Source of the DNA: an uncultured Candidatus Saccharibacteria bacterium | Lineage (GTDB): Bacteria; Patescibacteriota; Minisyncoccia; Phycocordibacterales; UBA2100 | Length of the DNA: 64,000 bases | Direction of reading: 5' to 3' | Assembly (NCBI GenBank): GCA_964654205.1 | Contig: CAZZHR010000002.1 | Coordinates: forward strand, 1,800 to 65,799 | In this document: one piece after another, positions 24,996 through 55,627 of the stretch | Position numbering within the stretch: the first letter of the stretch is position 1 | Layout: each line of letters starts with the position of its first letter | The notes under the pieces: model-generated | The model's database searches: none | Seen by the model: only the letters and a program-made list of their open reading frames with translations | What the model was told of the DNA's origin: nothing | Position numbers and translations under genes: made by a program

Positions 24996-25664
24996 TCATT
25001 TTTCAAGCCCCCGACGATTCTTTTTCCACTCATCGATCTTTGCGTGGTTGCCGCTCCTTAACACTGCCGGCACTTTGTACTTCTTTTTCTTCCACACAAG
25101 CACCTCCGGACGCGTATAGACCTCAGGCGACGACACGCGCGATGCTTCGAGCGATTCGGCTTTGCCGAGAACACCTGGTATGTGCCGCGCGATAGCATCT
25201 ATCATGGTGGCCGCGGGAAGCTCGCCGCCCGTGAGCACATACGGTCCGACGGAGACTTTCTTCGCCTTCAGTATCTTCTGCACGCGCGCATCGACACCCT
25301 CATAGTGGCCAGAGATGAAAACAATATCTTCCTTCTTTGCCAGCTTCACCGCCATCGCCTCGTCGAACTGTGCGCCATCAGTGGCGAAAAAGATTACTTC
25401 CGCTTTCCGCCGGCCGGCGGACTTGCCACGAGCCTTTTCAACCGCGCGGAGCATTGGCTCTGGTCGCATGACCATGCCCGGCCCTCCACCGTACGGACGT
25501 CGGTCAACCCGCTCTTCAGAGACGCGCCCCTTAGGCACAAATTTTTTTGGATCGTAGTAGGAGACACGAATCTTCTTTTTTTCCTGTGCTTTTCCGAGAA
25601 TCGACGCGTCGAGGTACGGACGAATCGCATCCGGGAAAAGCGTTACGATATGGAAGTGAATCAT
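24996..25664 (-). CDS. trmD: tRNA (guanine37-N1)-methyltransferase
   Basis: MIHFHIVTLFPD, RPYGGGPGMVM and the SPOUT knot region SGHYEGVDARV...LTGGELPA; start moved to MIHFHIV. Confidence 0.9.
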   Translation of the reverse strand: MIHFHIVTLFPDAIRPYLDASILGKAQEKKKIRVSYYDPKKFVPKGRVSEERVDRRPYGGGPGMVMRPEPMLRAVEKARGKSAGRRKAEVIFFATDGAQFDEAMAVKLAKKEDIVFISGHYEGVDARVQKILKAKKVSVGPYVLTGGELPAATMIDAIARHIPGVLGKAESLEASRVSSPEVYTRPEVLVWKKKKYKVPAVLRSGNHAKIDEWKKNRRGLEK

Positions 25665-25678
25665 ATATACTTTGGGCA

Positions 25679-25999
25679 ATGTTTGCGAAACTCCGCTCGT
25701 TCTTCGTGGCGTCACTCGTCGCGCTCTTCTTCCAGCTCGTAGTTATCTTTGTTTTTCAGATAATGTACCGAGGGTTGGATTGCGGATTGCTCGAACAAAG
25801 AGTCTGCTCGTTCCCTATCTTTCTCAAGGGTATTACCGAACTCGTCGCATCGATCAATATCTACAGCCTCGGAGCCCCGACAATACTTCTCGCACTCATC
25901 ATTGGGGCTGCGTGGCGTATTTATCGAGAACTTCGCAAGAGCGGTATGCGGCGGCGCGATTTTGTCGCCCCGTCGGCGCTCAACACTACTGACCTTTGA
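25679..25999 (+). CDS. Possible small two-TM membrane protein (106 aa), sitting where rimM would be expected
   Basis: MFAKLRSFFVASLVALFFQLVVIFVF... with moderate GC3 bias; the only plausible ORF in the 270-bp gap between trmD and khpA. Confidence 0.3.
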   Translation: MFAKLRSFFVASLVALFFQLVVIFVFQIMYRGLDCGLLEQRVCSFPIFLKGITELVASINIYSLGAPTILLALIIGAAWRIYRELRKSGMRRRDFVAPSALNTTDL

Positions 26000-26327
26000 G
26001 GTCGGTGATGATGTCGTCGACGGTCGTATCGCGAACGTACGGCTCAGAGGTACCAGAATCGCCCTGCGCATCCGCACGGCCACCCTCCGGCTCTTCTATC
26101 TTAAGGTTGACGCGCGCATCGTTCTTCATGCCCACCACGCGAAGCACGGTGCGGATTGCCTTGGCTGTCGCACCCGAGCGGCCGATGACCTTGCCCATGT
26201 CGTCGCGGTTGACGCTGAGCGTGAGGAGCACGCCCATCTCATCCACCGTGCGCGTAATCTTCACATCTTCCGGCTTGTCGACGAGTGCCTTTACTACGTA
26301 CTCGAGAAATGCCTGATCGCTTTCCAT
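25986..26327 (-). CDS. khpA: KH-domain RNA-binding protein (KhpA/YlqC-like, UPF0109)
   Basis: KH GxxG loop VIGRSGATAKAIRTVL; conserved position between rpsP and trmD. Confidence 0.75.
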   Translation of the reverse strand: MESDQAFLEYVVKALVDKPEDVKITRTVDEMGVLLTLSVNRDDMGKVIGRSGATAKAIRTVLRVVGMKNDARVNLKIEEPEGGRADAQGDSGTSEPYVRDTTVDDIITDLKGQ

Positions 26328-26400
26328 ATCTATCGTGCTATTCAGAGTAATGAAAACATTGTACGATTGCTGACATCGGGCGTCAACCTCACCTATCAGA

Positions 26401-26436
26401 CTCCTGCAAATTCACCAATTGGTGGATTTACAGGAG
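26401..26436. promoter_or_regulatory. 36-nt near-palindromic element, copy 1
   Basis: 31/36 identical to 54654-54689; core TTCACCAATTGGTGGA flanked by ctcctg/caggag arms; lies between rpsP and khpA. Confidence 0.7.
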
Positions 26437-26473
26437 TGAATCGTTTCCGAGGCTCGAGGTCGTTCTCGATGAA

Positions 26474-26893
26474 CTAGTCCTGCTTCTCTTCAGGAGCTAC
26501 TTCAGTCGGAGCTGCGTCGGCAGATGGTTCTTCAGCTGCCGGTGCCTCGACAGGAGTCTCTGTGGCAGGGGTCTCCGCAGCTGTCGGAGCTTCCGCCGGT
26601 GCCACTTCTTCTTTCTGCGGCTCGACGTACTTCGGAAGCACATTTATCTTCTTGCCCTTGATGATGCCTGCCGAAACGAGCATGTTGTGCACCGTGTCGG
26701 ATGGCTTCGCGCCGACGGAGAGCCAGTGCTGAATCTTGGCCTCGTCGAATTTCCTCTCCTTAGCCCTGGGATTATAAGTACCGACGATGTCGGTGAACTT
26801 GCCGGTCTTCGGTCCTTCTGTGTGCTCCACGACAATAAGGCGGTACGACGGCATGTTGATGCGGCCGATGCGCTGCAATCTGATTTTTAGCAT
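26474..26893 (-). CDS. rpsP: 30S ribosomal protein S16 with low-complexity Ala/Pro/Glu C-terminal extension
   Basis: MLKIRLQRIGRINMPSYRLIVVEH...GTYNP matches S16. Confidence 0.9.
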   Translation of the reverse strand: MLKIRLQRIGRINMPSYRLIVVEHTEGPKTGKFTDIVGTYNPRAKERKFDEAKIQHWLSVGAKPSDTVHNMLVSAGIIKGKKINVLPKYVEPQKEEVAPAEAPTAAETPATETPVEAPAAEEPSADAAPTEVAPEEKQD

Positions 26894-27137
26894 TGCGAGA
26901 CTCTAGCAAATTTGGCATCTACCGTCAAATCGTGGTTTACTATCCCCAGCCAAGAAAGGGGGTGATGTAAACGGACAAAGAAACCAAGTACAGTCTTATC
27001 GCTGTGGCTGTGAGCGTTGTAATCGCTGTGCTACTCACTTGTGTCGGAAGTATGCTCCCGCGTGCTTCCGAGACTCGCCCGGCACAGGCGACGTCCACAG
27101 ACCAAAGATGAGACAAGGGGATGATCTCTCGAAATAC

Positions 27138-27176
27138 GACGGCCGTGCTTGAGTGCACGGCCGTTTTCTTTTTTTG
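27138..27176 (+). terminator. Strong plus-strand intrinsic terminator with no annotated plus-strand gene upstream
   Basis: ACGGCCGTGCttgagtGCACGGCCGT followed by TTTTCTTTTTTTG. Confidence 0.7.
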
Positions 27177-27234
27177 TGATTATTTGACAAGTTTTAGCCG
27201 GCGCCCCGCTCGGGGCGCCGGCCATCGGGACGCA

Positions 27235-27570
27235 TCACGCGTCCGCGCGCACAACATCTTCGTTGATCATGAGGACCATGTCGCGGATGTGGCCTATCTG
27301 CTCGTCTTCCGACTCGCAGAGAGTTCCTGCGTCAGCGAAACCGAGCGCACGAATGCGCTCCGGTTCGGTGGCGGGCATCGGCATCCACGGGTCACCCGGA
27401 GTGGGTCGCCAGAGATAGAAGGTCCTCTGCTCCGGCCGCGTACGCGGCACCGCCCTTTCCGAAGGAAGATCGACGATGAGCTGGATGAACGCAGTTCCCT
27501 CGAACTCGCGTTCGCTGACGGTCCGCGGCGTATACGCCCTGTTGCCGCACTGGATGCGACTCATTTCCAT
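27235..27570 (-). CDS. Hypothetical protein (111 aa)
   Basis: High GC3 bias; RBS GGGAGG 7 nt upstream of ATG 27570; GC hairpin (27197-27222) downstream. Confidence 0.4.
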   Translation of the reverse strand: MEMSRIQCGNRAYTPRTVSEREFEGTAFIQLIVDLPSERAVPRTRPEQRTFYLWRPTPGDPWMPMPATEPERIRALGFADAGTLCESEDEQIGHIRDMVLMINEDVVRADA

Positions 27571-27625
27571 GCCTGCCTCCCGGCTACGATTGGCTCGAAC
27601 TGCCACCAATCTAGACGAGATACCA

Positions 27626-36119: not shown

Positions 36120-37871
36120 ATGCACCGATATATGGCCGAACTTGAGCATATCCGGCACACGCTCGCGCACCTCCTCGCACAGGCCATACTCGAGAGCTAC
36201 CCCAAGGCAAAACTCACGCTCGGCCCCGCCGTCGACAACGGTTTCTACTACGATGTCGACTTCGGTGAGGACAAAGTCCCGGAGGAAAGCCTCAAGACAT
36301 TTCAAAAGACGATGAAAAAGCGCCTCTCATCGTGGAAAGAGTTCACGCATGAGGAAGTCTCCAGGGAAAAAGCCCTCGAAATCTTTGCCGGCAACGAGTA
36401 CAAGGCCGAGCTCATCGAGGAAATCGCCGAGCGCGGCGAGACAATCACGCTCTACACCTGCGGCGGATTTACCGACCTGTGCCGCGGCGGTCACGCAGAG
36501 AATCCCGCACAAGACATCGACCCCGACAGCTTCAAACTCGACCGCATCGCGGGCGCATACTGGCGGGGCGATGAAAAAAATAAGATGCTCACCCGCATCT
36601 ACGGCCTCGCATTTGCGAGCAAGGAGGAACTGGATGCCTACCTCGTCCAGCGCGAAGAGGCCAAGAAGCGCGACCACAGGAAGATTGCACGCGAGCAGGA
36701 TCTGCTTGTCTTTTCCGACCTCGTCGGAAGTGGCATGCCCATGTATACGCCTAAGGGCAACATCGCGCGCAATGCCATCGTCAATTACTCGCGCGAACTC
36801 AATGCAAAGCTGGGCTTTGGCGAAGTACACACACCCAACATCAACAAAGCGGAGCTCTTCAAACTCTCAGGCCACTACGACGCATACAAGGAAGACATGC
36901 TCTCTGTCCGTTCGCAGTACGTGAGTGATGAAATGTTTCTCAAGCCGATGAACTGCCCGCAGCACACGCAGATCTTTGAATCGCAGCCGCGCAGTTACCG
37001 CGACCTCCCTATCCGATATGCCGACTTCGCGAATCTGTACCGCGACGAGAGGCCGGGCGAACTTTCAGGCCTCACGAGACTTCGCGCGTTTGCTCAGGAC
37101 GATGGGCACATCTTTTGCCGCGAAGACCAGATTGAGCAAGAGGTCTCTGCAGTTCTCGGCGCGATTCAAGAAGCACTCGCGACATACAAGATTGGATACT
37201 GGATGCGGCTCTCGCTGAGCGACCCGCAGAACCCGGCCAAGTATCTCGGTGATCCTGCGGTATGGCAGCGCGCCGAAGCAATCATGCGCGACCTTCTTAC
37301 CAAAAAAGGCATCGAGCACAAAGAAGCAGTCGGCGAGGCAGCTTTCTACGGCCCGAAAATCGACATCATGGCCGTCGACGCGATAGGACGAGAGTGGCAG
37401 ATTTCGACCGTACAGCTCGACTTTGTCCAACCATCACGCTTCCAGCTCGAGTACACGGCAGAAGACGGCGGCAAACAAACGCCAGTCATGATACATCGCG
37501 CTCTCATCGGTTCGCCCGATAGATTCCTCGGCATTCTCATCGAGCACTATGCGGGCGCGTTCCCCCTCTGGATGGCACCGGTGCAGCTCAGCATCCTTCC
37601 TGTCTCTGAAACGCACTCGGAGTATGGGCGCAGCGTCGCGCAGCAGCTTAAAGATGCGGGGCTCCGCGTGGAACTCGACGAGACAGATAGTCTCGGCAAG
37701 CGCATCCGCACCATGAAGATGCAGAAAGTGCCGCTCTACATCGTCGTCGGCGACCAGGAGGTCGACGCAAAGACCGTGACGGTGGAAGACCGTGCGGGAG
37801 AAAAGCGCACGCTCGCACTCCCTGCACTTATCGACGAACTCAAGCAAAAAATCTCCTCCCGCTCCCTCTAG
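36120..37871 (+). CDS. thrS: Threonine--tRNA ligase (short form lacking TGS N-terminus)
   Basis: Class II core and anticodon-binding domain; editing-domain HxxxH context; collinear with ThrS from the second N-terminal domain onward. Confidence 0.85.
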   Translation: MHRYMAELEHIRHTLAHLLAQAILESYPKAKLTLGPAVDNGFYYDVDFGEDKVPEESLKTFQKTMKKRLSSWKEFTHEEVSREKALEIFAGNEYKAELIEEIAERGETITLYTCGGFTDLCRGGHAENPAQDIDPDSFKLDRIAGAYWRGDEKNKMLTRIYGLAFASKEELDAYLVQREEAKKRDHRKIAREQDLLVFSDLVGSGMPMYTPKGNIARNAIVNYSRELNAKLGFGEVHTPNINKAELFKLSGHYDAYKEDMLSVRSQYVSDEMFLKPMNCPQHTQIFESQPRSYRDLPIRYADFANLYRDERPGELSGLTRLRAFAQDDGHIFCREDQIEQEVSAVLGAIQEALATYKIGYWMRLSLSDPQNPAKYLGDPAVWQRAEAIMRDLLTKKGIEHKEAVGEAAFYGPKIDIMAVDAIGREWQISTVQLDFVQPSRFQLEYTAEDGGKQTPVMIHRALIGSPDRFLGILIEHYAGAFPLWMAPVQLSILPVSETHSEYGRSVAQQLKDAGLRVELDETDSLGKRIRTMKMQKVPLYIVVGDQEVDAKTVTVEDRAGEKRTLALPALIDELKQKISSRSL

Positions 37872-37946: not shown

Positions 37947-37992
37947 GCACATACACCAACCCCCCACGACCGTTTGGAGTTGGTGTATGTGC
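37947..37992 (-). promoter_or_regulatory. Element A: ATACACCAA-N6-ACGGTCGT-N6-TTGGTGTAT, 11 nt past the stop of PaaX-like gene 1
   Basis: Same element and orientation as 38567-38612. Confidence 0.7.
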
Positions 37993-38002
37993 AGATCGAG
38001 CC

Positions 38003-38572
38003 CTAAGCCAAACCGAAGTCGCGCTTGAGAGAAGCTTCCCCCTCAAGCTCTTGCACGACCATGTATCGCATCTTGTAGCCGATACGCCACTCAGATTTCA
38101 AAAGTGCGACTAAGTCTTCACAATTGTACGGAAACACCCAGACGCTGTCCTGAAGTCGCACGAAACCAAGGTGCCTGAGCATTTCCCGGATGCGATCGCG
38201 CAGTCGACGGTTCTTCTCTGGAATGTCAAAAATAAGCACTCGCCACTTCCCGTCCCATTTTTTCTGATTCCGTGCCTGAAGGTCTGCCACACTTTGCAAC
38301 CTCTCGAGCTCGCGCGCACCGAGCGCTGTCAGGCGCAAGCCCGCTGCCTCCCGCCGAGCATACCCCTTTTCGACGAGTCGCCGGTATGTGCGCCTCATAC
38401 TCTCGCCCTGTCGCGGACCAGGGACTAGTCCGAGTCGCTTCAGACCTTGCACTGCATTTGGAGCCGCAATAGCAATCGCGAGCAGTCCGCCTAATTTGAG
38501 CGTCTCGAGTGCGACCTGTTGAATTTTCTCTTTTCTCGAACGCGATGCACCTCTCTCCTCCAATCGCCCCAT
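38003..38572 (-). CDS. PaaX-family-like transcriptional regulator, paralog 1 (190 aa)
   Basis: GLRLTALGARELERLQ...WDGKWRVLIFDIPEKNRRLRDRIREMLRHLGFVRLQDSVWVFPY parallels PaaX (GLRLTRRAESK..WDGKW) and has a Cas2/VapD-like core. Start set at MGRLEERG by alignment to paralog 2. Confidence 0.55.
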   Translation of the reverse strand: MGRLEERGASRSRKEKIQQVALETLKLGGLLAIAIAAPNAVQGLKRLGLVPGPRQGESMRRTYRRLVEKGYARREAAGLRLTALGARELERLQSVADLQARNQKKWDGKWRVLIFDIPEKNRRLRDRIREMLRHLGFVRLQDSVWVFPYNCEDLVALLKSEWRIGYKMRYMVVQELEGEASLKRDFGLA

Positions 38573-38612
38573 ACACCAAGTATATACGACCGTGGGGTAT
38601 TGGTGTATTGGG
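38567..38612 (-). promoter_or_regulatory. Element B: the same 37-bp inverted-repeat element, overlapping the start codon and -10 region of PaaX-like gene 1
   Basis: cccCATacaccaagtatatacgaccgtggggtattggtgtat; TATACT box 6 nt before the ATG suggests a leaderless transcript. Confidence 0.65.
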
Positions 38613-49031: not shown

Positions 49032-49130
49032 GGGTCAGCGCGGATGAAATCAAAAGGGCGGCCGAATGGCTACCCTTTTGATTGCACACCTTGCCACAAT
49101 ATGCGCGCTTTGTGTCGGTGCTATCTGTGC

Positions 49131-49159
49131 GTTATAGCGAACGTATAGCATTTACATCA
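49131..49159 (-). promoter_or_regulatory. Element C, downstream copy: TATAGCGAA-N3-ATAGCAT, overlapping the stop of PaaX-like gene 2
   Basis: gttatagcgaacgtatagcatttaca; same orientation as 49736-49764. Confidence 0.65.
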
Positions 49160-49729
49160 TTTCCCTTTCAGACCGAAATGTTTGCGTAAATCCTCATCAC
49201 CCTCTATCTCGTCAACAATCATATAGCGGACTGCCCTTCCGATGTGTAGATCAGCCTTCACGAGTGAAACAAAATCTTCAACATCGTAGGGGAAAACCCA
49301 TACGCTATCCTGCAACATAAGAAAGCCGATGTGTCGGAGAGTCCTACGGATCTTATCCCTATCTGCTTTCCGATGTTCGGGGATATCAAAGATGAGCACA
49401 CGCCACCTGCCGTCCCAACGACGCGGCACGTCCCCTCGCATCAATGCCTCATGTAGATCCAGCTCTTTCCGGCCTCGGTCAGTCAATCGAAGCCCTTTCT
49501 CCGTGCTACGAATGTGTCCAGAGGCGATTAATCGCTTTCGCGCTCGATTAATCGTTGAGGAATCTTGCGGAGACCTCTCAAGGAGTCCCAATTTGTACAA
49601 ACTTTGGACCGCATTCGGTGCTGCCAAAACAAATCCTGTGATTGCAGCCACTTTGACCGCCGCGAGTAATGCGAACTTGATATCTCTTTTCCGCTTACGG
49701 ATCCTCCCTCGTATTTCTACCTCGCCCAT
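49157..49729 (-). CDS. PaaX-family-like transcriptional regulator, paralog 2 (190 aa)
   Basis: APNAVQ..GLRLTDRGRKELDLHE..RWDGRWRVLIFDIPEHRKADRDKIRRTLRHIGFLMLQDSVWVFPY; collinear with 38003-38572. Confidence 0.55.
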   Translation of the reverse strand: MGEVEIRGRIRKRKRDIKFALLAAVKVAAITGFVLAAPNAVQSLYKLGLLERSPQDSSTINRARKRLIASGHIRSTEKGLRLTDRGRKELDLHEALMRGDVPRRWDGRWRVLIFDIPEHRKADRDKIRRTLRHIGFLMLQDSVWVFPYDVEDFVSLVKADLHIGRAVRYMIVDEIEGDEDLRKHFGLKGK

Positions 49730-49735
49730 ACTATT

Positions 49736-49764
49736 TATTCGCTATAGCGAAATGATAGCATGAC
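49736..49764 (-). promoter_or_regulatory. Element C, upstream copy with a perfect 14-bp palindrome ttcgctatagcgaa, 8 nt upstream of the paralog 2 start
   Basis: tattcgctatagcgaaatgatagcatgac. Confidence 0.65.
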
Positions 49765-52023: not shown

Positions 52024-53868
52024 TTAGCGCACCTCCCAACCCCTCGTTTTTACCGCCGCACTCACGCTCTCCATGCGCTCGTTTGCGTCTTCGTCGGTGA
52101 GTGTGCGGTCGAACGACTGCAATACGAGCCGGAATGCGTACGAGACGCGGTCGTCCTTCTTGAACTCGTCGAAGAGCGAGCTGCGCACGAGGAGCTCCCC
52201 CGCCGCGCTGCGTATGACGCTGAGAACTTCATCTGCATTTGTATCCTCAGGGACCCAGAGTGCGATGTCGCGGACAATGAACGGGTACTTTGAATACGGC
52301 TGGTAACGATCCGCCTTAGTGAAGGAAATGTTTGGATACGTTCCGGCCTCACCATGCTCGGCCAAGTACTCGTCGAGTAGCTTTTTGTAGTCATCGGCAG
52401 TCTTCATCTTTTTGACCTTTTCTACAGCAAGTTCGACGGTGATTTCTTCATTACCACCCTTCCACACTGTCCCTATTTCAAACAGTTTCACTTGGCTGAG
52501 TCCGAGCAGATCTTTGTTGCGCACATTTTTCTCAAGCGCTTCTTGGAGCGACTCCGTGAGCTCCCTGCGCAGGTGCGGCTTCACGCCGTCGACTTTGTTG
52601 AGCACGACACGGTCGCCTTTGGTGGTAAATACTGATGTAAAGACTTCGCTGAAGCCCTCTCGCGCGAGAAATTCTCGGATGCGCTCACTCCGTGCATATT
52701 CTTGGTTGACCTCCGGCTGTCCTGGCATGGCGGGCAGCTCTACCGACGGCACGTGCTCGTACCCCGCGATGCGCGCTATCTCTTCGACGAGGTCTTCAGG
52801 TCCGCCAGCTGGCGGAGAGAGGTCGAGCCGCTCGAATGGTACGTGCACTTCGAACTCATCGCCTCGCTCTTCATGCGCGAGGTCGAGACGGGTGAGAATC
52901 TCGGCGATTTTTTCTGGTGTGAACGATGTACCAAGCACCTTGTTGATGTGCGCCACAGATACGCTCGCGGTCTGCTTCTGTGCTCGCGTGGGGTACTCAT
53001 CCACGTACCCGACGAGCTCGCCGCCCGCAAGCTCGAGCACCATTTCCGCCGCAGCTTTGAGTCCGTACGCCGCAAGTTCAGGGGAAATCACTTGTTCGAA
53101 TCGCGCCGACGCGTCGGTGCGGAGCTTGAGAGATTGCGACGTCTTTCGTATGGTCACACCGTCCCAATTGGCCGCTTCGAGGAGCACGTCTTCGGTGTCC
53201 TCGTCGATGCCCGTCGGAAGACCCCCTTTGACGCCCGCGATACTCACTGCCGCACCGGCGTGCGCATCTTCTATCGCGAGCATTGCCTCAGTGAGCTCGT
53301 ATTTCTTTTCATCGAGCCCGACGAGCGACTCCCCTTTTTGTGCTTTGCGGACGATGAGCGCGCGTACACCCTCTTTCTCTCGCAGCTTAGCCATATCGAA
53401 CGCATGGAGTGGCTGGCCGAGATGGAACATCACGTAGTTCGTGACGTCGACCACATTGTTTATCGGGCGCTGTCCGATGCTCTCGAGCGCCTTCTGGATG
53501 TGTGCGGGCGAAGGACCGACTTTGACCCCGCGTATGTGCGCTGCCGTAAAGCGCGTGCAAAGCGCCGGAGCCTGGATATCCACGCGAATACTATCTGTCT
53601 TGGGCTCAATAGTAATTTTCTGCCGCAGCGGGTCGCCTTTCATCGGAATCTGCAAAATCGCCGAGAGCTCTTTGGCAATGCCGCGATGCGAGAGGCAATC
53701 GTGGCCGCGATTGGGCGTAACTTTCACATCGAGAATGTCTCCGCCAGCTGGCGGACTCGATATACTCTCTATCTCAAATGCGTGGAACGTGAGCGCATCG
53801 CCAAGCTTCTGCGCGTCCGGCAACGGCGCATCGAAAAAAGTCTGGAGCCATTCGCGAGAGATTTTCAT
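52024..53868 (-). CDS. pheT: Phenylalanine--tRNA ligase beta subunit (compact, 614 aa)
   Basis: Begins MKISREWLQTFF (the tRNA-binding / B3-4 domain start); start codon is 3 nt after the pheS stop. Confidence 0.85.
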   Translation of the reverse strand: MKISREWLQTFFDAPLPDAQKLGDALTFHAFEIESISSPPAGGDILDVKVTPNRGHDCLSHRGIAKELSAILQIPMKGDPLRQKITIEPKTDSIRVDIQAPALCTRFTAAHIRGVKVGPSPAHIQKALESIGQRPINNVVDVTNYVMFHLGQPLHAFDMAKLREKEGVRALIVRKAQKGESLVGLDEKKYELTEAMLAIEDAHAGAAVSIAGVKGGLPTGIDEDTEDVLLEAANWDGVTIRKTSQSLKLRTDASARFEQVISPELAAYGLKAAAEMVLELAGGELVGYVDEYPTRAQKQTASVSVAHINKVLGTSFTPEKIAEILTRLDLAHEERGDEFEVHVPFERLDLSPPAGGPEDLVEEIARIAGYEHVPSVELPAMPGQPEVNQEYARSERIREFLAREGFSEVFTSVFTTKGDRVVLNKVDGVKPHLRRELTESLQEALEKNVRNKDLLGLSQVKLFEIGTVWKGGNEEITVELAVEKVKKMKTADDYKKLLDEYLAEHGEAGTYPNISFTKADRYQPYSKYPFIVRDIALWVPEDTNADEVLSVIRSAAGELLVRSSLFDEFKKDDRVSYAFRLVLQSFDRTLTDEDANERMESVSAAVKTRGWEVR

Positions 53869-53870
53869 GA

Positions 53871-54611
53871 CTAGAATTGGTTGATGAAGCGGAGATCCGC
53901 AGAGTGCATGTGGCGCACGTCGTCTATCCCCCAGCGGAGCATCGCCAGTCGGTCGAGCCCCATGCCGAATGCGAATCCACGGTACCTCTCGGGGTCGACA
54001 CCTGCGTTGCGGAGTACCGAGGGATGCACCATGCCCGCGCCCATCATCTCTATCCAACGGTCTTTCAGCTTCTCCGGCACATCGCTTCCGACGAGGCGCA
54101 TATCTACCTCGACGCCCGGCTCGACAAAGGGAAAGAAGCTCGGACGGAAACGTACCTCGACATTGGCGCCCTTAAAGAGTTCCTTGAAAAACTTTTCGAG
54201 CGTACCTTTGAGGTGCGCGAGCGTGATGTCCTCGCCGACCGCGAGCCCTTCTATCTGGAAAAATTCAGCTTCGTGCGTCATGTCGGTCGCTTCGTTGCGG
54301 AAGACCTTGCCCGGGACAATCACGCGATACGGAGGCTTCTTGCCAGCTTTGATTTGCGCTTCCATGTAGCGCACCTGCACCGGCGAGGTGTGCGTGCGGA
54401 GCACATAGCCCGGTTCGTCTTTGATAAAGAATGTGTCCTGCATGTCGCGCGCGGGATGGTCTTTCGGCACATTGAGTGCATCGAAGTTATACCACTCGCT
54501 CTCGAGGAGCGGGCCGGACGCGAGCGTGAAGCCCATCCCGTAGAAAATCCGATTTGCTTCTCGGATGAGGTGGGAAATGGGATGCAGGTGCCCCGCAGAA
54601 TGCATGGCCAC
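53871..54611 (-). CDS. pheS: Phenylalanine--tRNA ligase alpha subunit, catalytic core only (246 aa)
   Basis: Class II motifs: FRNEATD..HEAEFFQIEG, GAGMVHP and FAFGMGLDRLAMLRWGIDD. Confidence 0.9.
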   Translation of the reverse strand: MAMHSAGHLHPISHLIREANRIFYGMGFTLASGPLLESEWYNFDALNVPKDHPARDMQDTFFIKDEPGYVLRTHTSPVQVRYMEAQIKAGKKPPYRVIVPGKVFRNEATDMTHEAEFFQIEGLAVGEDITLAHLKGTLEKFFKELFKGANVEVRFRPSFFPFVEPGVEVDMRLVGSDVPEKLKDRWIEMMGAGMVHPSVLRNAGVDPERYRGFAFGMGLDRLAMLRWGIDDVRHMHSADLRFINQF

Positions 54612-54653
54612 CAGTATATCCCACGGGCGCTCAAATTCTACGTAAATGGGTCA

Positions 54654-54689
54654 CTCCTGTATTTTCACCAATTGGTGAATTTACTGGAG
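54654..54689. promoter_or_regulatory. 36-nt near-palindromic element, copy 2 (extends to a 42-bp palindrome, 54651-54692), 40 nt upstream of pheS
   Basis: ctcctgtattttcaccaattggtgaatttactggag; perfect 16-bp core TTCACCAATTGGTGAA. Confidence 0.7.
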
Positions 54690-54805
54690 TGAGATATTCA
54701 ACCACCGATAGCAACAGGGTTGGAGAATGAGAGCTGCGCAGCCTCCCCATGATGACAGGGTCGCATCGACACGATGCAGCGCTCGAGCCCAGTTCCAATG
54801 AAAAG

Positions 54806-55627
54806 CTAGAATCCGTCCACCTCGTAGAGCTCGTCGTCGTCTTTTACGATGAACCTGCCATCGATAAGGCGGGCATCGGACCCGCGGCGGGCATAGATGG
54901 GAGCAATGACCGATGTAGGGCGCACGTCGGGCTCCGCAAAGAAAACGCCCCCTTCTTCAGTGATATACACGACGTTGTCGCCTATGTAGAACGCTCCTGT
55001 CGCCTTCTGCCTCGTCTCCTCGACGGGTATCTGACGCACGCAGTACGACGGCCGACCACAGAATCGGCTGGGCGGTATCGTCGATGGATCGAGCAAGCGC
55101 ACGTACACATCTCCCTTCTCCACGAAAAGGGTCTCTCCTTCGCGGCCGACAGTAGTGGAAGCAAGTTCGACTTCGAAAGCGTCGAGGTACGCATCATATT
55201 GTGCGCGTGGAATCGAGCGTGTCGAGGTCGAGGTCGTGCTTACAAATGTGAGGGGGACTACATCGATGGCTTCTGGAATGAGGACGGCGCGGGCATCAGT
55301 GACAACCTCCGGCTCCACAACGAGTGTGCGGTACCATGGCAGTGCGTCTTCACGCTCTACGCGTATCTCGTATGCATCGGGCGACAGGCTATCGATGTAG
55401 AATCCTCTGTTCAAAAGTCCGCTGCGCCCCACCTCCTCACCGTTCATGTGTACGACTGCGTCGTTGTACGGGACTGACAAGTAGATACCCCCCGTGCGGA
55501 AAATCCCGAATTCGGAACTGAATCGATACCCGCTAGCGAAGAAAATCGCGACCGGGATGCAGACGAGGAACAGAACGAGGAAAATCGCGAAATATATCCT
55601 GCGCACGAGTGAGGAGAGAGGTTGCAT
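54806..55627 (-). CDS. Membrane-anchored hypothetical protein (273 aa)
   Basis: N-terminal TM helix FAIFLVLFLVCIPVAIFF with an extracytoplasmic body; sits next to the GT2 gene. Confidence 0.5.
   Translation of the reverse strand: MQPLSSLVRRIYFAIFLVLFLVCIPVAIFFASGYRFSSEFGIFRTGGIYLSVPYNDAVVHMNGEEVGRSGLLNRGFYIDSLSPDAYEIRVEREDALPWYRTLVVEPEVVTDARAVLIPEAIDVVPLTFVSTTSTSTRSIPRAQYDAYLDAFEVELASTTVGREGETLFVEKGDVYVRLLDPSTIPPSRFCGRPSYCVRQIPVEETRQKATGAFYIGDNVVYITEEGGVFFAEPDVRPTSVIAPIYARRGSDARLIDGRFIVKDDDELYEVDGF

What the first reader, a model, noticed from the sequence alone, without database searches (positions are those of the whole stretch)
26401..26436. A 36-42-nt palindromic element occurs twice, upstream of khpA-trmD and upstream of pheST
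ctcctgcaaattcaccaattggtggatttacaggag (26401-26436) and ctcctgtattttcaccaattggtgaatttactggag (54654-54689) are 31/36 identical. Each forms a long hairpin or dyad with a perfect 16-bp core TTCACCAATTGGTGAA and GGAG/CTCC outer arms (tcactcc…ggagtga in copy 2). Both lie 40-75 nt upstream of translation-machinery genes and are not followed by U-tracts, so they are not terminators. Candidates are an operator for a dimeric regulator of translation-gene operons, or an RNase III processing stem (rnc is encoded in this window).
Basis: seen in the sequence. Interest (0 to 1): 0.55.

Follow-up and report, generated by a model that had tools for sequence, protein, structure and literature searches.

The report
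Operator palindrome of PaaX-like regulator
The two 36-base palindromes are real and are most likely DNA docking sites for a small, undescribed PaaX-like repressor. In related ultra-small (Patescibacteria) bacteria its gene sits between the chaperone genes grpE and dnaK and is itself flanked by the same palindrome.

Summary
Window 26401-26436 and 54654-54689 are 31/36 identical palindromes, far beyond chance, in the rpsP|khpA-trmD and hypothetical|pheST spacers. All these genes are on the minus strand.

The palindrome is not specific to translation genes. Collection scans found the same 36-mer only in Kaiserbacteria/Parcubacteria-type Patescibacteria, always between genes, at 1-3 strict matches per genome. 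Its one conserved home is grpE-[palindrome]-X-[palindrome]-dnaK. X is a ~193-aa protein with a winged helix and a Cas2-like domain; its best structural match is E. coli PaaX.

- At dnaK the palindrome starts 7-11 nt after a TTGAC(T/A)-16-TACAAT promoter, a CIRCE-like position.
- At X its arm TTTACA serves as the -35.
- In more distant genomes the inner core changes, but both sites of one genome change together. The outer arms CTCCTGTAAA/TTTACAGGAG stay fixed.

This points to a regulator and its operator evolving together.

The two window sites are lineage-specific. Four relatives lack the pheS site and one lacks the rpsP|khpA site, so their regulatory effect is inferred only. An RNase III stem, a terminator and a REP-like repeat are all less supported. 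Nobody has shown binding.

The parts
26401..26436 (.). Palindrome copy 1, CTCCTGCAAATTCACCAATTGGTGGATTTACAGGAG (dyad extends to 26400-26437). Lies in the rpsP|khpA spacer.
54654..54689 (.). Palindrome copy 2, CTCCTGTATTTTCACCAATTGGTGAATTTACTGGAG (dyad extends to 54651-54692, TCACTCC...GGAGTGA). Lies in the hypothetical|pheS spacer.
26358..26386 (-). Sigma-70-like promoter TTGACG-17-TACAAT for khpA-trmD. It starts 14 nt downstream of copy 1, which puts the palindrome centre at about -67 from the predicted start.
   Evidence: 10 of 12 matches; 0.1 expected
25986..26327 (-). khpA (KH_KhpA-B domain), downstream of copy 1
24996..25715 (-). trmD
26474..26893 (-). rpsP (S16). Its stop is 37 nt upstream of copy 1. 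Its own leaderless-type promoter TTGACG-17-TAGAGT is at 26928..26900.
54613..54618 (-). TATACT -10 box, 7 nt before ATG 54605. TATACT-N7-ATG is conserved upstream of pheS in L029 and L030, so pheS is probably leaderless. This puts the palindrome centre at about -66.
   Evidence: read from the sequence; not called by the scanner
54635..54663 (-). Alternative pheS promoter: AATACA (inside the palindrome arm)-17-TAGAAT. Same geometry as the promoters of gene X in relatives.
   Evidence: read from the sequence; below the scanner's threshold
53871..54611 (-). pheS
52024..53868 (-). pheT
38003..38572 (-). Xp1, a paralog (25-30% identical) of the proposed regulator X; PaaX_M domain. The ortholog of X itself is not in this window.
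38570..38609 (.). Xp1's own dyad, upstream copy: CATACACCAA-N20-TTGGTGTATT. It contains a TATATA box and the ATG.
37950..37989 (.). Xp1's own dyad, downstream copy: CATACACCAA-N20-TTGGTGTATG, in the convergent spacer with thrS.
49157..49729 (-). Xp2, a second paralog of X; PaaX_M domain
49738..49751 (.). Xp2's own palindrome TTCGCTATAGCGAA, 8 nt upstream of its ATG
49128..49141 (.). Second copy of the Xp2 palindrome (TGCGTTATAGCGAA) in its 3' region, before a terminator-like hairpin at 49086..49045

Best explanation
Each palindrome is a double-stranded DNA binding site (operator) for a dimeric, lineage-specific regulator that I call X.

X is about 193 aa: a winged helix-turn-helix followed by a Cas2-like dimerisation domain. 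It is a short relative of the repressor PaaX without PaaX's effector domain. In related Kaiserbacteria-type Patescibacteria the gene lies between grpE and dnaK and carries the palindrome on both sides.

Inferred mechanism:
- Each monomer's recognition helix reads one outer arm (CTCCWGTAAA). The two arms are about 24 bp apart, as in PaaX's TGATTC-N27-GAATCA.
- At X's own promoter the arm doubles as the -35, so binding shuts off X (autoregulation).
- At dnaK the site begins just after the -10, so binding blocks initiation or early elongation, as HrcA does at CIRCE.

The two window copies are extra, recently acquired sites of this small regulon. At pheST the site overlaps or sits just upstream of the promoter. 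At khpA-trmD it lies between the rpsP stop and the khpA promoter, where a bound dimer could block read-through or modulate the promoter.

Shown: the motif, its distribution, its fixed positions at X and dnaK, core changes shared within each genome, and the fold of X. Inferred: that X is the binder, the direction of regulation, and any effect at the window sites.
For: 1. A genome scan constraining only CTCC-N8-CACCAATTGGTG-N8-GGAG gave 9 loci, all in 5 Patescibacteria genomes. The unconstrained positions were conserved too, giving the consensus CTCCWGTAAAYTCACCAATTGGTGARTTTACWGGAG.
2. About 20 distinct real sites are all intergenic.
3. grpE-[pal]-X-[pal]-dnaK was seen complete in nine loci (L001/L019, L002, L012, L015, L022, L025, L026, L027, L028). 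L007 and L021 reach the end of the locus or contig and show only X-[pal]-dnaK or [pal]-X-[pal]-dnaK.
4. Promoters called by the scanner end 7-11 nt before the dnaK palindrome: L002 and L012 TTGACT-16-TACAAT, L028 TTGACA-16-TACAAT.
5. The palindrome ends 25-26 nt before the X start codon in L001, L002, L012 and L021. The arm TTTACA/T, 16-17 nt, TAnnnT, then ATG 6-7 nt later can be read in L002, L012, L021, L025 and L028; L001 has TATATG in place of TAnnnT. The scanner called it in L028.
6. Distant orthologs keep the outer arms but change the core: TTACAGCTGTAA in L026, AACAATTGAT in L027, TAACAATTGTTA in L028. Both sites in one genome carry the same variant.
7. X has a PaaX_M domain (E 1e-17). 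Its AF2 model (pLDDT 84) shows a winged helix plus a ferredoxin-like domain. The best PDB match is E. coli PaaX 8a39 (E 2e-6, 189 columns), followed by winged-helix repressors and Cas2.
8. PaaX binds a long dyad, TGATTC-N27-GAATCA, and represses its own promoter by steric hindrance (PMC9493321).
9. At variable positions of the CACCAATTGGTG-type sites the two half-sites vary nearly independently: position 5/32 gives TT 8, AA 5, mixed 8. That fits protein half-sites better than a hairpin.
10. Four paralogs (Xp1 and Xp2 in the window, P0097, P0102) are each flanked by their own 14-42-bp dyad.
Against: - No binding or expression data exist. X is assigned by position and co-variation only.
- The ortholog of X is not in the 64-kb window, only two paralogs.
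- Three sites lie between convergent genes (L006/L018, L008, L024). Several sit 3-8 nt after a stop codon (L004/L023 after rnc, L006 after thrS, L020 after folD). No promoter is expected there.
- The window sites are missing at the orthologous places in relatives, and a 36-bp site cannot arise by point mutation. How new sites appear is unexplained.
- If TACAAT and TATACT are the real -10 boxes, both window sites centre near -67, which is unusual for simple repression.
- The -35 of the dnaK promoter overlaps the conserved FDLL-stop codons of X. Its conservation is therefore partly a coding constraint.
- Symmetric co-variation exceeds all shuffles (0 of 500), which a hairpin would also produce.
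Confidence: 0.62

Rival explanations
1. A mobile or REP-like palindrome. The 36-mer is copied to new intergenic places, or is the leftover end of a [palindrome]-gene-[palindrome] cassette. X would play a role like a REP-associated transposase rather than, or as well as, a regulator.
For: - Window sites and other peripheral sites are not positionally conserved among close relatives.
- An identical perfect 36-mer occurs at three unrelated loci in two genomes (L004, L009, L006).
- Sites occur in any kind of spacer, including convergent ones.
- The shared unit is only 36-42 nt.
- X and four paralogs are each flanked by two copies of their own dyad, as RAYT genes are flanked by REPs.
- The Xp2 cassette is present in the window but absent at that place in L031 and L032.
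Against: - Copy number is low: 1-3 strict matches per genome. No peripheral site occurs in about 130 kb of relatives' DNA fetched for other reasons.
- grpE-X-dnaK synteny and the site-to-promoter spacings hold down to 53% protein identity.
- X has no HUH or tyrosine-transposase signature. Its invariant residues are W, D, W, F, D, G, Q, S, V, P and F, and it matches a known repressor.
- No palindrome remains at the empty Xp2 site.
Confidence: 0.15
2. An RNA-level hairpin: an RNase III processing stem, a 3'-end stabiliser, or a terminator without a U-tract. It would act in the rpsP-khpA and pheST transcripts.
For: - Stable stems of -21 to -25 kcal/mol, z about -4.5 to -5.7.
- Several sites lie a few nt after stop codons or between convergent genes.
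- The dnaK copies would be transcribed in the 5' leader.
- Pairing and double changes exceed shuffles.
- rnc is present.
Against: - The sequence itself is conserved across unrelated loci and genomes, which a plain structural stem does not need.
- The two sites of one genome share a genome-specific core.
- Ten of 26 sites are unpaired at position 5/32, 9 at 10/27 and 10 at 13/24. Only 10 non-Watson-Crick cells are G-U wobbles, against 56 unpaired cells.
- In copy 1 the only wobble is on the non-coding strand; the mRNA strand has C-A.
- There is no U-tract, while the genome does use canonical terminators.
- At X promoters the palindrome overlaps the -35 and would not be in that transcript.
- No Rfam family matches.
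Confidence: 0.1
3. A binding site for a different DNA-binding protein, such as another transcription factor or a nucleoid or segregation protein. Its placement next to X would be coincidental.
For: - Nothing ties X to the site except position and co-variation.
- HxlR-type regulator genes lie near two sites (L024, L009).
- Two sites adjoin smc (L003, L004).
Against: - The only context conserved in every genome examined is the pair flanking X.
- Paralogs of X carry their own, different flanking dyads. This ties the dyad to the protein family.
- The window's rnc|smc spacer has no site.
Confidence: 0.1

Closest known systems
PaaX repressor and its operators (E. coli, Pseudomonas phenylacetate catabolon)
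   Same: - Winged helix plus Cas2-like middle domain. E. coli PaaX 8a39 is the best structural match to X, and Pfam gives PaaX_M.
- The operator is a long dyad with short arms far apart: TGATTC-N27-GAATCA, compared with CTCCWG-N24-CWGGAG.
- PaaX represses its own promoter by occlusion (PMC9493321).
   Different: - X is about 193 aa and lacks the C-terminal effector domain (PaaX_C).
- It scores 22-43 bits against the PaaX equivalog cut-off of 264.
- No paa genes are nearby; the targets are X itself and dnaK.
- The operator sequence is unrelated, and here the 24 bp between the arms are also palindromic and conserved.
HrcA / CIRCE heat-shock control
   Same: An inverted repeat sits between the promoter and the start codon of the dnaK operon. 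The regulator gene lies in the same grpE-dnaK-dnaJ cluster and appears to be autoregulated.
   Different: The sequence is not TTAGCACTC-N9-GAGTGCTAA; no CIRCE-like site with up to 4 mismatches occurs in any locus. X is not an HrcA-family protein. No groES/groEL site was seen. Extra sites lie next to housekeeping genes.
HspR / HAIR (actinobacterial dnaK operon)
   Same: A repressor encoded inside the dnaK operon binds inverted repeats at the dnaK promoter.
   Different: HspR is a MerR-type protein and HAIR is CTTGAGT-N7-ACTCAAG (from my own knowledge). Neither the sequence nor the fold matches.
REP elements and REP-associated tyrosine transposases (RAYT)
   Same: A 35-40-nt extragenic imperfect palindrome, with a single-copy gene flanked by two copies of it and solitary copies elsewhere.
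   Different: Here there are only a few copies per genome. X has a repressor fold rather than an HUH/Y1 transposase fold. The flanked gene keeps its synteny over a wide clade.

Membership tests
PaaX-family repressor/operator pair | Winged helix-turn-helix followed by a Cas2-like (PaaX_M) domain | tested here: met
   Pfam PF20803 at E 1e-17 to 1e-22. AF2 model plus Foldseek top hit PaaX 8a39, E 2e-6.
PaaX-family repressor/operator pair | C-terminal effector-binding domain (PaaX_C) and a score at equivalog level | tested here: not met
   X is 193 aa with no PF08223 hit. TIGR02277 scores 22-43 bits against a cut-off of 264.
PaaX-family repressor/operator pair | Operator made of two short inverted arms about 27 bp apart (about 39 bp in all) | tested here: met
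   Conserved arms CTCCWG...CWGGAG are 24 bp apart, 36 bp in all. Xp1's dyad is 10-N20-10, 40 bp. The PaaX geometry comes from PMC9493321. Only the geometry matches; the sequence is unrelated.
PaaX-family repressor/operator pair | Protein binds the operator and represses, including its own promoter | not testable with these tools
   Only position is shown. The arm TTTACA acts as the -35 of the X promoter in several genomes.
HrcA/CIRCE | CIRCE sequence TTAGCACTC-N9-GAGTGCTAA | tested here: not met
   No match with up to 4 mismatches in the window or any locus.
HrcA/CIRCE | Inverted repeat between the promoter and the start codon of a chaperone operon | tested here: met
   The palindrome starts 7-11 nt after the -10 of the dnaK promoter in L002, L012 and L028. 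The same layout can be read in L001, L007 and L021.
HrcA/CIRCE | Regulator is an HrcA-family protein | tested here: not met
   X hits only PaaX_M and Cas2 models.
REP/RAYT | Tens to hundreds of extragenic copies per genome | tested here: not met
   1-3 strict matches per genome in the whole-collection scan. None in about 130 kb of relatives' DNA outside the X flanks.
REP/RAYT | Associated gene is an HUH/Y1 transposase flanked by the repeats | tested here: not met
   The flanking layout is present. The protein is PaaX-like and has no invariant histidines.
Intrinsic terminator | G+C-rich hairpin followed by a U-tract | tested here: not met
   No terminator-like site at either copy. Canonical ones exist elsewhere in the window.
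RNase III processing stem | Long double-stranded RNA stem cleaved by RNase III | not testable with these tools
   A stem can form. The pairing statistics do not favour RNA-level selection: few wobbles and many unpaired cells.
CRISPR Cas2 | Stand-alone ~90-aa Cas2 next to cas1 and a CRISPR array | tested here: not met
   No cas genes appear in the gene lists of L025-L028 or L033-L035. The match covers only about 38 residues of the Cas2 profile.

The most novel reading that the evidence does not exclude
The short winged-helix + Cas2-like proteins form a family of self-contained [dyad]-gene-[dyad] modules that can move or be copied. X would be a domesticated member that took over control of dnaK. 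The solitary X-type palindromes, including both window copies, would be spread or left behind by the module itself. That would be a REP/RAYT-like system built on a Cas2-like fold instead of an HUH transposase.
Probability: 0.12. Interest if true: 0.85.

Novelty: new variant of a known kind. Interest (0 to 1): 0.6.

Why it matters
Almost nothing is known about gene regulation in Patescibacteria (the candidate phyla radiation), which cannot be grown alone. This finding supplies a concrete, testable regulator-operator pair for one large lineage: a 36-bp site, a 193-aa protein, and two fixed targets (the regulator's own gene and dnaK).

If confirmed, it would show that a truncated PaaX-type protein fills the role that HrcA/CIRCE or HspR/HAIR play elsewhere. 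It would also correct the frequent database label 'CRISPR-associated endonuclease Cas2' for these proteins. The family-wide layout, with each paralog flanked by its own long dyad, gives a way to read off operator specificities for many uncharacterised regulators from sequence alone.

I found no description of the motif or of this gene's link to dnaK in the searchable literature.

Tried and rejected
- Rfam at gathering thresholds found only two tRNAs.
- A CIRCE search found nothing.
- I looked for a larger mobile element around the palindromes. Similarity between non-orthologous sites stops at 36-42 nt.
- I looked for half-sites or weak copies in the window with a position weight matrix. Only the two known sites appear.
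- The window's rnc|smc spacer, which carries the motif in L003, L004 and L023, has none, and the small ORF found there in relatives is missing.
- Orthologous pheS upstream regions in four relatives carry no motif.
- A PDB sequence search with X gave nothing significant; a fold search was needed.
- Literature searches for the motif string, PaaX+dnaK+Patescibacteria and PaaX+Cas2 found nothing relevant.
- The covariation test is positive but does not decide, because a symmetric operator that evolves with its dimer gives the same signal.
- Four metagenome matches (L010, L013, L014, L016) have low matrix scores and diverge at the conserved arm positions, so I treated them as chance matches; I did not check whether they lie in genes.
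- I considered a parS-, Noc- or SlmA-type chromosome site and an MfeI (CAATTG) restriction-related site. I dropped both for lack of any supporting context.

Full report
**1. The observation**

The 16-mer TTCACCAATTGGTGAA, allowing 3 mismatches, occurs only at these two places in 64 kb. The chance expectation is 0.09, and 0 of 100 shuffles gave two matches. Both are among the four longest inverted repeats in the window. Both fold well on either strand, at -21 to -25 kcal/mol and z from -4.4 to -5.7.

Two corrections are needed. Only copy 2 has the perfect 16-bp core. All neighbouring genes are on the minus strand. In transcription order the layout is:
- rpsP (26893..26474), 37 nt, copy 1, 73 nt, khpA (26327..25986), trmD.
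- A 273-aa hypothetical (55627..54806), 116 nt, copy 2, 42 nt, pheS (54611..53871), pheT.

No U-tract terminator is called at either copy. The five differences between the copies break pairs rather than compensate for each other.

**2. Where else the palindrome occurs**

I scanned one genome per species (185,579 species) with a pattern that fixed only CTCC-N8-CACCAATTGGTG-N8-GGAG. It returned nine loci, all in five Patescibacteria genomes labelled Kaiserbacteria, Parcubacteria, or in one case Saccharibacteria. The sixteen free positions were nearly identical among the hits. The consensus is CTCCWGTAAAYTCACCAATTGGTGARTTTACWGGAG.

A looser pattern on metagenomes added eleven real loci. Four further matches had low matrix scores and diverge at the conserved arm positions, so I treated them as chance. 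A weight matrix built from the first sites found weaker second copies in L001 and L002. It found nothing more in the window, not even half-sites.

In all there are about 20 distinct sites, every one intergenic. Similarity between non-orthologous sites ends after 36-42 nt, so there is no larger element. Strict matches number 1-3 per genome. About 130 kb of relatives' DNA fetched for other reasons holds no site apart from the pairs described next. This is not a high-copy repeat.

**3. The conserved context**

The recurring context is not translation genes. It is grpE-[palindrome]-X-[palindrome]-dnaK-dnaJ. The full layout is seen in L001/L019, L002, L012, L015 and L022. L007 and L021 run off the end of the locus or contig and show only part of it. 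X is a protein of about 193 aa with a PaaX_M (Cas2-like) domain.

A protein search found about 92 clusters of orthologs at 49% identity or more, all about 193 aa. Sources call them either 'PaaX' or 'Cas2', and all come from Kaiserbacteria, Parcubacteria or Paceibacterota. I fetched four more distant orthologs (53-67% identical). All lie between grpE and dnaK, and all carry a palindrome in both spacers.

The outer arms (G)CTCCTGTAAA...TTTACAGGAG(C) persist across these genomes. The inner core differs between genomes: CACCAATTGGTG-type in L025, TTACAGCTGTAA in L026, AACAATTGAT in L027 and TAACAATTGTTA in L028. The two sites of one genome share the same variant. Two hairpins with only a structural job have no reason to track each other like this. 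Two operators read by one evolving protein do.

**4. Position relative to promoters**

Upstream of dnaK the scanner calls TTGACT-16-TACAAT (L002, L012) and TTGACA-16-TACAAT (L028). These end 7-11 nt before the palindrome. The same layout can be read in L001, L007 and L021. The site therefore covers roughly +1/+5 to +40, which is where CIRCE sits. One caveat: in most genomes the -35 overlaps the codons for X's conserved C-terminus (FDLL-stop), so its conservation is partly a coding constraint. The TACAAT box lies in non-coding DNA.

Upstream of X the palindrome ends 25-26 nt before the start codon in L001, L002, L012 and L021. In L002, L012, L021, L025 and L028 its arm TTTACA/T is followed after 16-17 nt by TAnnnT and then, 6-7 nt later, by ATG. 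L001 has the same spacing but reads TATATG. This is a leaderless promoter whose -35 lies inside the operator (scanner call in L028).

**5. What X is**

An AlphaFold model built from 35 sequences has pLDDT 84. It shows a winged helix (helices 43-49 and 55-70, hairpin 74-87), a linker helix and a ferredoxin-like domain. Its best match among solved structures is E. coli W PaaX (8a39, E 2e-6 over 189 columns). The PaaX-like proteins 3kfw and 3l09, MarR/ArsR-type winged-helix repressors and Cas2 also appear among the next 50 matches.

X is not a true PaaX. It lacks the C-terminal effector domain and scores 22-43 bits against a cut-off of 264. It is not a CRISPR Cas2 either: only about 38 residues match, and no cas genes are nearby.

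E. coli PaaX binds TGATTC-N27-GAATCA and represses its own promoter by steric hindrance (PMC9493321). That is a long dyad with short, distant arms, comparable to CTCCWG-N24-CWGGAG here. The putative recognition helix of X (ERNRIWKAIKYLE) is almost invariant among orthologs. This matches the invariance of the outer arms. I infer that the helix reads the arms.

**6. Hairpin or protein half-sites**

On 26 sites, pairing (86.5% against 80.9%) and double changes exceed every shuffle. Much of that signal comes from core changes between genomes, which a symmetric operator evolving with its dimer would also give.

Within the CACCAATTGGTG-type sites, the variable positions behave almost independently in the two halves. 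Position 5/32 gives TT 8, AA 5 and mixed 8. In the full set of 26 sites, 9-10 are unpaired at each of positions 5/32, 10/27 and 13/24. Wobble pairs are rare: 10 cells, against 56 unpaired cells. Copy 1's single wobble falls on the non-coding strand, and the mRNA strand has C-A there. The organism also uses ordinary hairpin-plus-T terminators. I therefore favour recognition of double-stranded DNA. A secondary RNA-level effect, as known for CIRCE, is not excluded.

**7. The two window copies**

- *Copy 1.* It lies between the rpsP stop and a good promoter, TTGACG-17-TACAAT (26386..26358). Its centre is about 67 nt upstream of the predicted start. rpsP has its own leaderless-type promoter. A bound dimer here could block read-through from rpsP or modulate the khpA promoter.
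- *Copy 2.* Two promoter readings are possible. In one, AATACA inside the arm, 17 nt, then TAGAAT gives the geometry seen at X. In the other, TATACT (54618..54613) followed by N7-ATG (54605) gives a leaderless promoter, and the site centres near -66. TATACT-N7-ATG is conserved upstream of pheS in L029 and L030.

Neither site is conserved. Four relatives with 88-93% identical PheS lack the pheS site, including a genome that carries the motif elsewhere. A relative with a closely similar KhpA has the motif upstream of a ybjQ-like gene ahead of rpsP, not in the rpsP|khpA spacer. Conversely, the rnc|smc site of L003, L004 and L023 is missing from the window.

The periphery of this regulon therefore turns over quickly. 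Because a 36-bp site cannot arise by point mutation, new copies must be transplanted somehow. I cannot explain how.

**8. Sites that do not fit a simple operator**

Three sites lie between convergent genes (L006/L018, L008, L024). Several lie 3-8 nt after stop codons. They may act as protein roadblocks, or they may be neutral or recent copies. They are the main reason for keeping the mobile-palindrome rival at 0.15.

**9. A family-wide layout, found in passing**

The window has no ortholog of X but has two paralogs, 25-30% identical to the X ortholog P0008. Each is flanked by two copies of its own dyad:
- Xp1: CATACACCAA-N20-TTGGTGTATG at 37950-37989 and 38570-38609.
- Xp2: TTCGCTATAGCGAA at 49738-49751 and, with two mismatches, at 49128-49141.

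Two of three further paralogs from other genomes show the same layout. L035 has two identical 37-nt copies of a palindrome, and L033 has a 42-nt dyad on both sides. Xp2 is absent from the same place in two relatives. This strengthens the link between protein family and dyad. It also raises the possibility that these are movable modules.

**10. Verdict**

The best explanation is an operator for an undescribed PaaX-like regulator whose core targets are its own gene and dnaK (confidence 0.62). 'Translation-gene regulon' and 'RNase III stem' are not supported. I found no description of the motif or of this regulator-dnaK link in the searchable literature. I rate it a new variant of a known kind, with interest 0.6.

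Noticed in passing
window 37950-38609: Xp1, a paralog of X (38572..38003, minus strand), is flanked by two copies of its own 40-bp dyad, CATACACCAA-N20-TTGGTGTAT(G/T). The upstream copy contains a TATATA box and the ATG, which suggests a leaderless transcript. The downstream copy sits in the convergent spacer with thrS (36120-37871).
   Followed up: partly
window 49128-49751: Xp2, a second paralog of X (49729..49157, minus strand, just downstream of gyrB), is flanked by TTCGCTATAGCGAA (49738-49751) and TGCGTTATAGCGAA (49128-49141). A terminator-like hairpin follows at 49086..49045. The whole cassette is missing downstream of gyrB in relatives L031 and L032.
   Followed up: partly
L035 2271-2921; L033 2944-3650: Distant paralogs P0097 and P0102 are also flanked by their own dyads. 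L035 has two identical 37-nt copies of ACCATTTTTTATTCCGATCGGAATAAAAAATGGTATA. L033 has GGACTTGTTT-N7-CCTATAGGACA-N2-ATAAACAAGT on both sides. P0101 (L034) does not show this.
   Followed up: partly
window 26894-27625: About 730 nt between smc and rpsP have no convincing gene; a relative (L017) has a YbjQ-like gene ahead of rpsP. On the plus strand the stretch holds a 35-aa hydrophobic ORF (27004-27111), followed by a strong intrinsic terminator (27138-27165 plus a T-run).
   Followed up: partly
window 26900-26928, 54605-54618; L001, L002, L012, L017, L021, L029, L030: Many genes seem to be leaderless, with a -10 box ending 6-7 nt before the start codon (rpsP, pheS, X, a ybjQ-like gene). This may be a general feature of this lineage.
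   Followed up: no
L003 4670-5113; L004 5275-5673; L023 7848-8246: A small conserved ORF (132-147 aa, no Pfam hit) lies between rnc and smc together with the palindrome in three relatives. Both the ORF and the palindrome are absent from the window's 180-nt rnc|smc spacer.
   Followed up: partly
P0016, P0019, P0033, P0064: Public annotation names many X orthologs 'CRISPR-associated endonuclease Cas2'. The name rests on a marginal match to about 38 residues of the Cas2 profile. No cas genes are nearby, so the label is probably wrong.
   Followed up: yes
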